Below are positions 52,685 through 61,048 of a stretch of DNA of 64,000 bases, piece by piece; the first letter of the stretch is position 1; the number at the start of each line of letters is the position of its first letter. The stretch lies in assembly GCA_051294375.1 (NCBI GenBank), contig CM119269.1:6123919-6187918 (forward strand), written 5' to 3'. The translations under genes were made by a program, and so were the position numbers. Source of the stretch: Paraspadella gotoi (taxonomy: Eukaryota > Animalia > Chaetognatha). The notes under the pieces are model-generated. The model ran no database searches and was not told the DNA's origin. It worked only from the letters and a program-made list of their open reading frames with translations.

Positions 52685-55584
52685 TTACAATTCTTCCTTC
52701 TCCTCTTCGCCGGCGCCGGCGCCAGCATCGGCGCCCGGCTCGGGACCGGCGCCGCCCGCTCCTTCGCCGTACAATTTCGTGATGATCGGAGTGGCCACGT
52801 CTTCGACCTAAAAGCGGAAAAGGGAAACGGGTCCGGATTATGGTTAATAACCGACCTGAAAAACCATCGAAGAAACGCACAAAAAAATCTCACAAAATTT
52901 TTCCCTCCGCCTAACGCTTCCTCACCTCCTTCTTCTTGGCCTTGAAGTCGTCGGCCTCGGCTCCCTGGTTGGCATCGAGCCATGTGATTTTGTCATTGAT
53001 GGCTTCTTCGATCGTCTTCTTGTCATCTTCACTGATCTTCGCCCCGAGTTTCTCTTTGTCGTTCAACTGGTAGAAAGTGGGTATCGAAAACATTATTGAC
53101 AAATAAATCAATCATTTACTTAATGGGTTTTTCTCACCTGATTCTTGAGCGAGTAGACGTAGGACTCGAGTTCGTTTCTCGCCTCCACTCTCTCCTTCAA
53201 CTTCTTATCTTCTTCGGCGAAAGTCTCTGCGTCCTTGACCATCTTCTCGATCTCATCGTCGGAGAGGCTGAGGGTGAAAAGACGAAAACAGAAGTCACCG
53301 AAATAAATTTTTCGTTAATAACAAATTCATTCAAAGTATTTTCGTAAGCTGCTTAGTGCTTACCGGTTCTGGTCAGCCTGAATGACGATCTGCTGTTTGC
53401 TGCCGGTTCCCTTGTCTTCGGCGCTGACTTTGAGAATGCCGTTGACGTCGACCTCGAAAGTGACCTCGATCTGAGGGACGCCGCGCGGCGCCGGAGGAAT
53501 GCCGGTCAAGTCGAACTTGCCCAAGTTGTGGTTGTCCTTGGTCATGGGTCGCTCTCCCTCGAATACTTGGATGGTCACAGTGGGTTGGTTGTCGGAGGCG
53601 GTGGAAAAGATCTGAGACTTTTTCGTCGGAATCACGGTGTTTCTGAAGAAGAATTGTTAGTTATGAATTATTTGGTTGCCAAACCGCTGACTTTCTTAGA
53701 AATGAACTTATCCTTACCTGGGAATGAGTTTAGTCATGACGCCGCCGACAGTTTCGATACCGAGAGACAAAGGGTTGACGTCCAACAAGACCAAATTACC
53801 AGTGTCTTCCTCGCCTGAAAAAGATCGAACAATAAATATAGGTCCCATGTTTCGCCAATTAATGTCTCCTTGTATGGCTTACCCGAAAGAACGCCAGCCT
53901 GCACGGCGGCTCCGTAGGCGACGGCCTCGTCGGGGTTAATGCCCCTGGAGGGCTCCTTGCCATTGAAGTATTCCTTGACGAGTTGTTGTATCTTCGGGAT
54001 ACGAGTGGACCCGCCAACGAGCACGATCTCGTCGATCTCGTTTTTAGTCAGGTCGGCGTCCTGCAATACTTGCTGCACTGGCTTGAGGGTGCTGCGGAAG
54101 AGATCCTGAGCAATGAGAATGTGGGGCGGAATTAGTGAGTCGGTTTTGAATTACCCTTTAATTGATAAATGAACTCTCTCTTCTCTCACCATGTTGAGTT
54201 CCTCGAATCTGGCGCGGGTGAGAGTCTCACTGAAGTCATCTCCGTCAAAGAAGGACTCGATTTCGAGCTTGACTTGGTGTTGCGACGAGAGGGCACGCTT
54301 GGCCTTCTCCACCTCGCGACGAAGCTTCTGGACGGCACGGTTATCCTTGCGGATGTCGACGCCCTTCTTCTTCTTATAGAGCTTCACAAAGTGCTCGACA
54401 ACGCGCTGCAATAAAGATACACGAGGATGTTTCAAAATCTACAAAGACGACAATCTATTAAAGCGGCAATTTGGTTGAAAACCGACCTGATCAAAGTCTT
54501 CACCGCCCAAGTGAGTGTCGCCGTTGGTGGAGACGACTTCGAAGACGCCGTTATCAATCGTCAGCAGAGAGACGTCGAAGGTTCCACCGCCGAGATCGAA
54601 AACGAGAATGTTCTTTTCGCCCTAAACAAGAAAAAGCAGAACGAGGTTTGAGAAAAGAACCAAACGAAATGGGACCATCTTTCTCTCGACTCGCCTCTTT
54701 CTTGTCAAGTCCATAGGCGATGGCGGCCGCCGTTGGTTCGTTGATGATCCTCATCACCGTCATTCCTAGAGAACGATAAAAATAAAATAAAATAAAATAT
54801 GTAAATAAATGACCAAATAAAATTACTAGAGAGATTCTTTTGAGTCGAAACTAACCAGAAATGGTTCCAGCGTCTTTCGTGGCTTGACGCTGGGCGTCGT
54901 TGAAGTAAGCGGGAACGGTGACGACGGCGTGCGTGATTTTCTTGCCCAAATAGTCTTCGGCGGTTTCCTTCATCTTGGTCAGCACCATGGCGGAGATCTC
55001 CTCCGGCGCGAAGGATTTGGCCTCGCCGGCGACGCTCACTTCCACGTGAGGTTTGTTGTTTTTGTTGATGACCTGTCAAAGAAGTAATATTGCATTATAG
55101 ATGAAGAATGAAGAATGTAATAAATAAAAAAATAAATTGTAAATTAACAATTGATTATCGTTTCGATACCTTAAATGGAAAGGTTTTCGAGTCGGCCTGA
55201 ACGTTCTTGTCAGAATACTCGCGACCGATGAGCCGCTTGGCGTCGAAGACAGTGTTCTCGGGATTCGTCGTCAGCTGATTCTTGGCGGCGTCACCGATGA
55301 GACGCTCGTTGTCCGAAGTGAAAGCCACGTAGGAGGGAGTGATTCTGTGATGGTAATCATAAGAAATCATAAGAAATACAAAAACGCTCAACAGTTCAAT
55401 TATTGTACCGGTTTCCTTGATCGTTGGCAATGATCTCGACTCGGCCGTTTTTGAAGACGCCGACGCAAGAGTAAGTGGTCCCGAGATCGATTCCGATAAC
55501 CGTTCCGACATTCTCCTTGTCTTCGGCCCGCGCGATCACGACAAAGAGTAACGCCGTCGCGATCAATTTTATGTGGTACATCAT
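52685..55584 (-). CDS. HSPA5: ER chaperone BiP/GRP78 (Hsp70 family); 12 coding exons
   Basis: Signal peptide, [83 protein letters not shown]-terminal KEEL. Confidence 0.98.
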
Positions 55585-55894
55585 GATGACGGAGATATCG
55601 TTAAATGAACGACGTACACGGTAAAAATAAGATCTTTTTTAAATAGTCGTAAAAAGATTTATAATAAAAACTCGGGGTTCTCCAGTTAGGATCCCTGATG
55701 CTAAAAAAAAGGAAGGAACGAGAAATTTTTAAACATAAATAAAACTTTTGGAAGGACAGCCAAATAACATTAACAACGATTTGTAAAAAATGACTAGAAA
55801 GCGTGGCCGAAAAACAATATGTACTTAAATTAACGGCTGTAAAATAAAACTAGACATGAGGCAAATTTACAAAACAGGAAGAAATAAATTAATG

Positions 55895-57983
55895 TCAATT
55901 GATCAGGAGGCTTTCGCAAAGGTCTACGACGTTTTGCTTGATGAGTTTTGGCAAGGGAAGTTTAAGCGAAAAGTGGAACACGTTGGAAATGTGGGAAGCG
56001 CTGTGCCTAAGATCCAAGATGAAAAAATTTCGTTTCAAAATTGATTCTTAGAAAGTCCCAAATATGTCAATATTAAAAAATCCGAACCTGACGTTAAGGC
56101 AAGCGAGTTGTTTCAAGGATCTTGGTCGTTCGTAGAGCAAAAAGACGAGTGAGCGATGAAGCGAAGGAAAGGGGAACTCGTCGAAGGCGGAGACGTCCGA
56201 GTCATCGAAAGGATCGTCCTCGACGCGGGAGGCAATGAGCACGCGTTGGGTAAAAGGATATCCGGCGATAGCGACCAGCAGAACGATCTTGGAGAGCGCC
56301 GGGAGCGCCGTAGGAGAATCAGGCGCATCGTCAGCGTCGTCAGGGTGGAGGGAGTCGGGGCCAGCGCTTCGAAGTTGCGAAGCTTTGAGGCAAGCTCGGT
56401 AGAGGATGTCGTCGTTGGATTCGGTCGGCTCCAAACAACCGGTGGCTTGAAGGAGGATCTGAACAGTTCACATAAATAAAAAAAAGTTTAAAATTAAAAT
56501 AAAATTTATCAAAATCAAGAAAATATTTTGTCATCCGAACCTGAAAGACAGTAATCCAGCCGCGATGATCGCCACCTGCGAGACATTCCTCGAGGGCAAA
56601 GAAGACCAATTCGCTCGAAGCCCTGGCGCCGTAAAGGAAAAGAAGGCGCAGGATTTCGGCGCTGCGGCTTTTGGCAGCGGCGAAGAGAAGCTCGCGGTGT
56701 TGAAGGCTGATGCCGGCGCCGTGAGATAGCAAGAGGGCAACCACTTCTGCGTGACCTGACCAACGGGAAAATAAGTTAGATTGACACTCGAATCCAACGT
56801 TGACGCCTTTTTACCTTTGGAGACGGCGACTTTGATGGGGCTGACTTTTTCGCAATTGGTTACGTTTGGCAAGACTCCCTTGTCTAGAAGAAATTCGACG
56901 ATGGGCCCGTGGCCCGACAGCGCCGCGTAGTGGAGGATTGTGTTGCCAGATTTGTCGCGCAGCTGAAGGTCCGCTCCGTAGGTTTCGATCAAACAACGGA
57001 GGATGTCGAGCTGCCCGCTTTCCGACGCCAACATGACCGGAGTTTTGCCCGACGGTAATACTCCTTTCGAATATTTTGAACTTGTGTTGATTGCTAACCT
57101 TTTTAATATTTATTTTCCTCCAAAAAGGAAAAAAAAGTTTTCATACCCTTGTTGGGATTTCCGCCACGCTGAAGAAACTTTTGAACGTGAGCCTTGCGAT
57201 GGCGTTTAATGGCGGAGTGAAGGGGAGTTTCTCCGTGTTCGTTGAAAATGTTGGGATCGGCTTTGCCCTCCAACAGGATGTCAATAATAACGGAATCGGA
57301 AACCCAATTCCATTGAACAGAGAGATGCAAAGGCGTGGTGCCCGTCCCGTCCTTTTTGTTGCAATCCGCCCCTCGTTCGACCAAAAGCTACGGAGGAAAA
57401 GATGAGTAAAATAAAAAAACTTGATAGATCAGTATTCGGTAAGTAATTAATTTATACTTACCCTGACGATTTCCTTTTGAGAACAGACGACGGCCGATGC
57501 CAAAGGATGGGAGCCTCCGACGAAGCGGGCGTTCACATCTACACCGTCTTTTTTTACCAAATCGCGGACCTTGTGTGATTATGAAAATTTCTTTAATTAA
57601 AAAAAATAACCAAGTCGTTTAATGTTAGTTACCGTTTCAACGTTTCCTTGTTGAATTGCTTTGAAGAGCTGCTCTATCTTGGGAATTTTTCCCTGGTAGT
57701 TGGCCATGGCCTCCTCGTTCCTCTTGCATTTCTCCTGTCTCCTGGCGTAGCATTTGGCGTAAGCGGAACCCCAGGCGGAGCCCGTTGGGTTAGACCTCGG
57801 AGGAGGAGAGGCCCCCGAAGGGCAATCGGAGGCTGACCTCGCAGGGGCGGGGGAATCGGTGAGGGGTTGACCCACCGATATACGAAACCTCTCCCCGGAT
57901 CCGTGACGTTGTCTCGTCCAAAATAGACTGTCAAAGAAGTTTCTTCGCTGGTGTTGCGGAGTCGTTTCGCGCGCCTCATCCAT
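55895..57983 (-). CDS. Ankyrin-repeat and SOCS-box protein (ASB-like E3 substrate adaptor); 7 exons
   Basis: Ankyrin repeats GTTPLHLSV, GETPLHSAI, GKTPVMLAS, GNTILHYAA; SOCS box PRSLKQLACLNVR...LPLPKLIK. Confidence 0.9.
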
Positions 57984-60576: not shown

Positions 60577-60649
60577 CGAAGGAATTAAAGTCTAGCAAAA
60601 AGGGACGAGCCACAATCTTGCAGGGGCGTCGTAATTTTATTTTTTTTTT

Positions 60650-61048
60650 TCACGTCAGAGAATCCGAGGTGGTCGGCCGGTCGGCCAGCGACCACGCCAA
60701 CTGACGCGGACGAATCTTTCAGGAGCTTTTTCTACGGGGAAAAGCGTCGTGTCACGGAGACGCAATTGTAAGAGTGACACGTCCTGGATTTTCATTGGCC
60801 AGCGAGAGGCGCAGATGTTTAATCGCGTATCGCTTTTCCATTGGTCGATTGTTTCCTCGCGAAAATTCCATTCGAATGAATTTGACCAATAAGATCTAAG
60901 AACGTCGACTTTTTTGGCGAATCGAGACAGAGCGAGAAAAGTGGCGATGGTTCTCAAAACGAACGAGACGAACGTGTCGAGCGAGTCGGCGACGAGCCAA
61001 TGAGAGAATAGATGAGGTATCGAAATACACGTGAACGATTTTTATTGG
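60650..61048 (-). promoter_or_regulatory. ER-stress-type promoter: four ERSE-like elements and a UPRE
   Basis: CCAAT-N9-NNACG at 60780-98(-), 60826-44(-), 60886-904(+) and 61030-48(-); TGACGTGA at 60650-57(-). Confidence 0.7.

What the first reader, a model, noticed from the sequence alone, without database searches (positions are those of the whole stretch)
52685..61048. Putative UPR-controlled multi-gene unit: one ERSE/UPRE promoter ahead of ENPP, ASB and BiP
Seen: three co-oriented genes separated by only 155 bp (ENPP stop to ASB ATG) and 310 bp (ASB stop to BiP ATG). Neither spacer has a CCAAT box. Each has a strong pyrimidine-rich 3' splice acceptor with no obvious local donor (AG at ~58082 and ~55701; a third at ~60592 precedes ENPP). 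About 5.2 kb upstream of BiP are four CCAAT-N9-NNACG elements with exact ERSE spacing plus a TGACGTGA UPRE. Known: BiP is the classic ERSE (CCAAT-N9-CCACG; NF-Y with ATF6/XBP1) target, normally with tandem proximal ERSEs. Inference: BiP's promoter is this distal one. The transcript is then either an operon resolved by SL trans-splicing, or a shared non-coding leader exon (candidate donor gac|GTGAAA at 60653, 62-nt intron to ENPP) alternatively cis-spliced to three unrelated ORFs. Either way a nucleotide ectoenzyme and an E3 adaptor would be wired to the UPR.
Basis: partly seen in the sequence, partly recalled or inferred. Interest (0 to 1): 0.85.

Follow-up and report, generated by a model that had tools for sequence, protein, structure and literature searches.

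The report
Arrow-worm BiP operon cut by trans-splicing
In what is very likely an arrow worm, the ER chaperone BiP receives a spliced leader by trans-splicing and likely sits last in a three-gene operon whose shared promoter is predicted to respond to ER stress; such operons are common in these animals, but the stress control is untested.

Summary
The three genes, both spacers (155 and 310 bp), two strong unpaired acceptors and the four CCAAT-N9-NNACG elements are real (0 of 5000 shuffles). None of the four is the canonical CCAAT-N9-CCACG. One contig carries a 28-nt leader joined exactly at the AG at 55701. The leader is absent from the window, is unlike the proposed cis exon (7 of 28), and shares its last 9-10 nt with published chaetognath spliced leaders. 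A BiP contig from a related species starts with 23 nt identical to published Spadella SL2.0, joined at the matching site. So BiP is SL trans-spliced, the shared cis exon is rejected, and the organism is almost surely a chaetognath, a phylum where about half of genes are trans-spliced and 18% lie in operons. A spliced ASB contig runs to 15 nt before the BiP acceptor. Still inferred: that ENPP belongs to the same transcript, that the distal ERSE-like cluster drives BiP, and that ENPP and ASB are stress-induced. An internal promoter is not excluded. Verdict: a new member of a known kind, with one unusual, testable regulatory feature.

The parts
61030..61048 (-). ERSE-like element 1 (CCAAT-N9-TCACG, continues into CACGTG)
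60886..60904 (+). ERSE-like element 2 (CCAAT-N9-GAACG), opposite orientation
60826..60844 (-). ERSE-like element 3 (CCAAT-N9-ATACG)
60780..60798 (-). ERSE-like element 4 (CCAAT-N9-GGACG)
60650..60657 (-).
   Evidence: 1 of 5 such sites in the window
60592..60593 (-). Candidate acceptor before ENPP; weak (1.9, below all 22 internal acceptors); use untested
58139..60531 (-). ENPP5-like ectonucleotide pyrophosphatase/phosphodiesterase, 549 aa, 7 exons; likely first cistron
   Evidence: PF01663 E 1.7e-38; 295 of 530 identical to P0001, last exon included; best named hits ENPP5 or ENPP5-like
58419..58578 (.). Dispersed repeat inside ENPP intron 6 (58594-58326), 98% match to 4418-4577
58065..58083 (-). 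Two unpaired acceptors before ASB (AG 58083-58082, score 10.5; AG 58066-58065, score 7.6); likely trans-splice sites
   Evidence: length of the ASB contig places its 5' end here
55895..57983 (-). Ankyrin-repeat protein with SOCS-box-like tail (ASB-like), 547-548 aa, 7 exons; second cistron
   Evidence: Ank families; model; BC-box and LPxP motifs by recalled pattern only; last intron bridged by an X1 contig
55716..55894 (-). ASB 3' UTR: 179 of the 194 nt between the ASB stop and the BiP acceptor are covered by the spliced ASB contig
   Evidence: table 8, record 5
55701..55702 (-). BiP trans-splice acceptor AG; 28-nt non-window leader joined here
   Evidence: table 7
55676..55700 (-). First 25 nt of the BiP 5' UTR, 20 of 25 identical to the bases after the SL in L001
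   Evidence: 0 of 100000 shuffles
52685..55584 (-). BiP/HSPA5, 660 aa, 12 exons, one GC-AG intron (54694-54622), ends KEEL; last cistron
   Evidence: 9 of its 11 introns appear among the 15 joint rows shown (53 rows not shown)

Best explanation
BiP mRNA is made by spliced-leader trans-splicing at 55701, and BiP is likely the last gene of a chaetognath operon (ENPP, ASB, BiP) that is predicted to be transcribed from the ERSE-like CCAAT cluster at 60780-61048. Shown: a chaetognath-type leader on BiP at this AG, the same event in a related species, and an ASB transcript that fills the spacer up to 15 nt before the AG. Inferred (about 0.85): ASB and BiP come from one precursor, cut at the BiP acceptor with almost no intercistronic DNA. 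Inferred (about 0.75): ENPP heads the same precursor and ASB is released at 58082 or 58065. Inferred (about 0.6): NF-Y with an XBP1- or ATF6-type factor binds the four elements, so ER stress raises the whole precursor, and any difference between the three mRNAs is set after transcription by acceptor strength and stability.
For:: X1 record 4 (336 nt) fits 55409-55700 with 0 differences and has a 28-nt loose end starting at the AG; 0 matches in the window at up to 3 mismatches, best ungapped match 19 of 28, and no upstream site where its last 6 or more bases are followed by GT; last 9-10 nt shared with 4 of 4 published chaetognath SL variants compared (0 of 5000 shuffles each). L001 begins with the last 23 nt of published SL2.0, then a UTR start 20 of 25 identical to 55700-55676; spliced ASB contig covers to 55716; its length leaves -20 to +30 nt beyond the ASB acceptors over 6 of 6 exon choices, so it is not fused to ENPP; the only ERSE-like cluster lies at the head of the unit; 0 of 12 CCAAT in 55701-60531 have the spacing; in other eukaryotes' loci the element lies near the gene (4 of 19 scorable loci; 2 of 4 genomic-length loci ending in KDEL have an exact ERSE 230-364 nt before the GIDLG motif). 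X1's word share (0.66) fits exons of all three genes (0.60) better than BiP plus ASB (0.42). No AATAAA-type signal in either spacer, as fits the 3-nt gap in the Spadella RPS14-PCNA operon (PMC2481426).
Against: The window's leader rests on one contig, and its exact form is not in Table 3 of PMC2481426 (13 of 23 identical to the L001 leader). It was not seen on a second gene: 0 exact matches in metagenome contigs. L002, the other close BiP contig, shows no SL (1 of 2). No reads were laid on ENPP, the promoter or the 5' part of ASB, so leaders there, a start site and a polycistronic precursor are all unseen. 0 of 4 elements has CCACG. Trans-splicing alone does not prove an operon: about half of P. 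gotoi genes are trans-spliced but 18% are operonic. A CCAAT-dense patch (6 in 500 nt from 58259, tied for densest in the window) lies just before ASB and could be an internal promoter. PMC12460157 reports operon genes as broadly expressed and suggests finely regulated genes are excluded.
Confidence: 0.6

Rival explanations
1. Hybrid operon or separate unit: BiP (with or without ASB) is driven mainly by an internal promoter inside ENPP or ASB and trans-spliced from an outron; the distal CCAAT cluster serves ENPP or gives only basal read-through.
For: Hybrid operons with internal promoters exist in C. elegans (PMC7725455, passages). Six CCAAT lie in 500 nt from 58259, just before ASB. The distal elements are non-canonical. 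Most trans-spliced chaetognath genes are not operonic.
Against: 0 of 12 CCAAT in the unit body has ERSE spacing, and there is no ERSE-II or UPRE there. Three of the six CCAAT at 58259-58758 lie in the coding last exon of ENPP, whose Trp-rich peptide is conserved in P0001, and three lie in or beside the repeat. It leaves unexplained why an ERSE-like cluster sits in front of an ENPP that is tightly linked to BiP.
Confidence: 0.3
2. The operon is real, but its promoter is a constitutive NF-Y promoter that is not UPR-responsive; BiP is controlled after transcription.
For: 0 of 4 elements has CCACG, which PMC8301375 gives as the ATF6/XBP1-binding half. Operonic genes show low regulatory complexity in P. 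gotoi.
Against: ACG at exactly the ERSE position in 4 of 5 CCAAT boxes (0 of 5000 shuffles; 2 of 115 CCAAT in window 1-52000) points to a second factor at fixed spacing; 3 of 4 continue into an ACGT core.
Confidence: 0.07
3. A shared non-coding exon is cis-spliced to the three ORFs, from the donor at 60653 or from beyond the window.
For: The 28-nt leader could in principle come from beyond position 64000; no genome was available to search.
Against: Leader versus the 28 nt before 60653: 7 of 28. Donor score 2.1, below all 21 internal GT donors. The leader ends like published chaetognath SLs, and L001 carries a published SL at the matching site.
Confidence: 0.03

Closest known systems
Chaetognath SL-resolved operons (Spadella cephaloptera RPS14-PCNA, PMC2481426; 1,470 validated operons in Paraspadella gotoi, PMC12460157)
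   Same: Co-oriented unrelated genes; SL ending in TTGTTTAAA added at an unpaired acceptor; upstream mRNA reaching almost to the next acceptor (3 nt there, at most 15 nt here).
   Different: The leader form here is not in the published Spadella/Flaccisagitta table (I could not see the three P. gotoi SL sequences). The last gene is a classic stress-inducible gene and the head carries ERSE-like elements, whereas operon genes are described as broadly expressed and weakly regulated.
Ciona intestinalis operons and C. elegans SL1-type operons (PMC7986045, passages)
   Same: Little or no intercistronic DNA between the upstream mRNA end and the downstream trans-splice site.
   Different: Different phylum and leader sequence; PMC12460157 argues for independent origins.
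Mammalian ERSE in the HSPA5/BiP promoter (PMC8301375, passages)
   Same: CCAAT with ACG at the ERSE position, in several copies, upstream of BiP.
   Different: NNACG instead of CCACG in 4 of 4; 5.2-5.5 kb and two genes away from the BiP ATG; binding and induction untested.
Human ASB7 as an ERSE-bearing, ER-stress-induced E3 adaptor (PMC5890977, abstract only)
   Same: An ASB-type gene under ER-stress control has a precedent.
   Different: Monocistronic in human; orthology of this ankyrin protein to ASB7 was not tested.

Membership tests
Chaetognath SL-resolved operon | Co-oriented genes less than 250 bp apart (criterion of PMC12460157) | tested here: met
   ENPP stop to ASB acceptor 55 or 72 nt; ASB contig end to BiP exon start 15 nt
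Chaetognath SL-resolved operon | Spliced leader on a downstream gene, absent from its genomic upstream region | tested here: met
   BiP; relative L001:
Chaetognath SL-resolved operon | Spliced leader on ASB | tested here: inconclusive
   Only contig-length arithmetic: 10-30 spare nt in 4 of 6 exon choices, none in 2; letters not seen
Chaetognath SL-resolved operon | Same leader on unrelated mRNAs, or an SL RNA gene elsewhere in the genome | tested here: inconclusive
   0 exact matches in metagenome contigs; no genome held
Chaetognath SL-resolved operon | One polycistronic precursor from one upstream promoter | not testable with these tools
   Only assembled contigs were available, and these cannot show starts or precursors
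ERSE (CCAAT-N9-CCACG) | CCAAT followed by ACG at the consensus position | tested here: met
   4 of 5 CCAAT; 0 of 5000 shuffles
ERSE (CCAAT-N9-CCACG) | Exact CCACG half-site | tested here: not met
   TCACG, GAACG, ATACG, GGACG: 0 of 4; filed as ERSE-like only
ERSE (CCAAT-N9-CCACG) | NF-Y plus ATF6/XBP1 binding and ER-stress induction | not testable with these tools
   Needs a reporter, ChIP or drug treatment
BiP/HSPA5 | HSP70 domain, N-terminal signal-like peptide, C-terminal ER-retention motif | tested here: met
   PF00012; hydrophobic N-terminus read by eye and KEEL end; named hits are BiP-like
ASB (ankyrin repeat and SOCS box) | Ankyrin repeats | tested here: met
   PF00023 and PF12796 on two exons
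ASB (ankyrin repeat and SOCS box) | C-terminal SOCS box | tested here: inconclusive
   BC-box-like and LPxP motifs by a recalled pattern; no Pfam hit on the two halves, which an intron splits
ENPP4/5-type ectonucleotide pyrophosphatase/phosphodiesterase | Single PF01663 domain with signal peptide and C-terminal hydrophobic anchor | tested here: met
   hydrophobic stretches read by eye; activity not tested

The most novel reading that the evidence does not exclude
A stress-inducible animal operon: BiP's ER-stress promoter sits two genes upstream, so an ectonucleotidase and an E3 adaptor ride on the unfolded protein response, and trans-splicing efficiency (weak ENPP acceptor, strong BiP acceptor with a conserved 25-nt exon start) sets how much of each mRNA is made, the upstream genes partly serving as BiP's outron.
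Probability: 0.4. Interest if true: 0.62.

Novelty: new member of a known kind. Interest (0 to 1): 0.42.

Why it matters
It turns an odd-looking layout into a concrete case of chaetognath operon processing, with a leader form I did not find in print. If the promoter inference holds, it is a counter-example to the view that finely regulated genes stay out of chaetognath operons, and it offers a simple drug test (tunicamycin or DTT) of whether an animal operon passes an acute stress signal to all its genes or filters it after transcription.

Tried and rejected
First guess of a homoscleromorph sponge: wrong; three paper searches on that idea gave nothing useful. Naming the species by protein search failed: close BiP relatives (up to 94% identical) and the best ENPP relative carry no taxon names, and the quick tree only groups the window's BiP with 17 unnamed sequences (the careful tree did not finish). 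The phylum rests on the leader. No run is on record as RNA; X1 is treated as RNA because its contigs skip introns exactly. Contig depths (BiP 1449-2825, ASB 155) cannot rank genes by the tool's own statement, so they are not used as evidence. X2 holds BiP pieces at depth 4-8 with no leader among the rows shown; 171 loose-end rows were not shown. X3 and X4 are other organisms. The leader was not found in metagenome contigs, by a full-text search for 15 of its bases, or in three readable supplements of PMC12460157; that paper's spreadsheet, which may list this operon and the SL sequences, was too large to read. PMC2844618 is not held. Rfam on 57000-64000: 0 matches at E 0.1. No paper on BiP in a trans-spliced animal operon under ER-stress control appeared in two searches (listings only). 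Three look-ups of earlier findings were empty. Synteny could not be tested: both close relatives fetched (L001, L002; 2 of 80 loci) are transcript contigs. In one search, 25 of 80 loci were picked by hand as long or close, 6 were dropped for lack of the N-terminal motif, and most of the other 19 are not confirmed as BiP.
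Full report
Observation. The minus strand of 52685-60531 holds three intact intron-rich genes. The ankyrin gene (57983-55895) has Pfam ankyrin hits and a SOCS-box-like tail by recalled motif only. 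BiP (55584-52685, 660 aa) has an HSP70 domain, a hydrophobic N-terminus and KEEL. Stop-to-ATG spacers are 155 and 310 bp. Scored against 22 internal introns of these genes, the acceptors at 58082 and 55701 are strong (10.5) and have no donor partner in their spacers; the acceptor at 60592 (1.9) and the donor at 60653 (2.1) fall below every internal site.

Promoter elements. Four of the five CCAAT boxes in 60600-61100 carry ACG at the ERSE position; 0 of 5000 shuffles reach four, none occurs at six other spacings, and the rate is 0 of 12 in the unit body and 2 of 115 in window 1-52000. The pattern was defined after the fact, and none of the four has the CCACG of the consensus (consensus from PMC8301375, passages). 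They are ERSE-like, not ERSEs. The TGACGTGA is 1 of 5 such sites in 64 kb. As a rough control, 4 of 19 scorable HSP70-family loci from other eukaryotes have the element within 700 nt of the N-terminal motif, three of them exact ERSEs. In the window's BiP no such element lies in the nearby DNA.

The decisive result. Run X1 holds 0.66 of the region's words. Laid on 51500-56460, its contigs skip introns exactly: 9 of the 11 BiP introns appear among the 15 joint rows shown. One contig (336 nt) fits 55409-55700 without a difference and continues with 28 foreign bases from the AG at 55702-55701. Read in mRNA sense they end in TTGTTTAAA, the ending of most chaetognath spliced leaders in Table 3 of PMC2481426 (passages); the shared suffix is 9-10 nt with 4 of 4 variants compared, against 0 of 5000 shuffles each.

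Independent support. A scan with one BiP exon returned 80 loci, two of them close (L001 96%, L002 94%). L001 begins with 23 nt identical to the 3' end of Spadella SL2.0, followed by 25 nt that match window 55700-55676 at 20 positions (0 of 100000 shuffles). This fixes the junction and shows BiP trans-spliced at the matching site in a second species. L002 has no SL at its 5' end. The organism is therefore very likely a chaetognath; the species was not determined.

Is it an operon? A spliced ASB contig of 1934 nt covers 179 of the 194 nt between the ASB stop and the BiP acceptor and stops at 55716. The spacer is thus almost all ASB 3' UTR and leaves no free DNA for a promoter. The contig's length puts its 5' end within -20 to +30 nt of the ASB acceptors for 6 of 6 exon choices: it is not fused to ENPP, and in 4 of 6 choices there is room for a leader remnant. 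ENPP's stop lies 55 or 72 nt before those acceptors, and neither spacer has an AATAAA-type signal. X1's word share fits all three genes' exons (0.60) better than two (0.42), though unspliced RNA could add to it. This is the layout of the Spadella RPS14-PCNA operon (3-nt gap) and meets the P. gotoi criterion of under 250 bp with a leader on at least one gene (PMC12460157, methods passage). No reads were laid on ENPP, the promoter or the 5' part of ASB, so those steps are inferred.

Mechanism. Most likely, polymerase starts just downstream of the CCAAT cluster and reads through ENPP, ASB and BiP; SL addition at 58082 or 58065 and at 55701 releases the downstream mRNAs. NF-Y with an XBP1- or ATF6-type factor would raise the whole precursor under ER stress, and unequal mRNA levels would be set by acceptor strength and stability. 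The main rival is an internal promoter, as in C. elegans hybrid operons (PMC7725455, passages). A CCAAT-dense patch at 58259-58758 is a candidate, but it has no ERSE spacing and is explained in part by coding sequence and a repeat.

Comparison and novelty. In P. gotoi 10,197 of 21,072 genes are trans-spliced and 18% are in operons, with three leaders, none operon-specific (PMC12460157, section 10 read whole). The window has a second candidate of the same type, Inturned followed 171 bp later by an AMP-binding enzyme. The architecture is thus known and common. What I did not find in print is this leader form, or BiP as a downstream operon gene behind ERSE-like elements; the spreadsheet supplement of PMC12460157, which could list both, was unreadable. 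[quoted passage not shown] Other papers seen: PMC7986045, PMC10282587 and PMC2566580 (passages) and PMC5890977 (abstract).

Verdict. Observation confirmed; trans-splicing of BiP shown; shared cis exon rejected; three-gene operon likely; UPR co-control plausible but untested. New member of a known kind, interest 0.42.

Noticed in passing
window 44601-50480 (+): Inturned (stop 46103-46105) is followed 171 bp later by the ATG (46277) of an AMP-binding enzyme gene, with acceptors at 46164 and 46191 (scores 9.0, 9.2): a second candidate operon.
   Followed up: partly
window 55676-55700 (-) and L001:24-48: The first 25 nt after the BiP trans-splice site are conserved between species (20 of 25) while the rest of the UTR is less so; possibly a splicing enhancer or translation element.
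   Followed up: partly
window 54622-54694 (-): GC-AG intron in BiP, bridged by contigs of X1, X2 and X4.
   Followed up: yes
window 58419-58578 and 4418-4577: 160-nt dispersed repeat, 98% alike and inverted, inside ENPP intron 6; probably a small mobile element.
   Followed up: no
window 34098-34116 (-) and 9662-9680 (+): Two exact CCAAT-N9-CCACG sites. The first lies in a CCAAT-dense patch about 1.4 kb upstream of the IFT80 start near 32740; neither was tied to a UPR gene.
   Followed up: partly
window 62532-63910 (-): Co-oriented upstream gene, low-complexity protein with no Pfam hit on three pieces; ends about 2 kb before ENPP, so probably not part of the unit.
   Followed up: no
window 58139-58325 (-): The ENPP cytoplasmic tail has a Trp- and Lys-rich stretch conserved in P0001 and an acidic dileucine-like motif (motif recalled); the tail is longer than in the named ENPP5 hits compared.
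   Followed up: no
window 7366-7771 and 35527-35720: A second dispersed repeat family, 92-100% alike over 54-81 nt pieces.
   Followed up: no
P0050-P0084, P0166-P0194: Many unnamed BiP proteins from marine collections are about 93% identical to this BiP and group with it; probably other chaetognaths, a resource for comparing leaders.
   Followed up: partly
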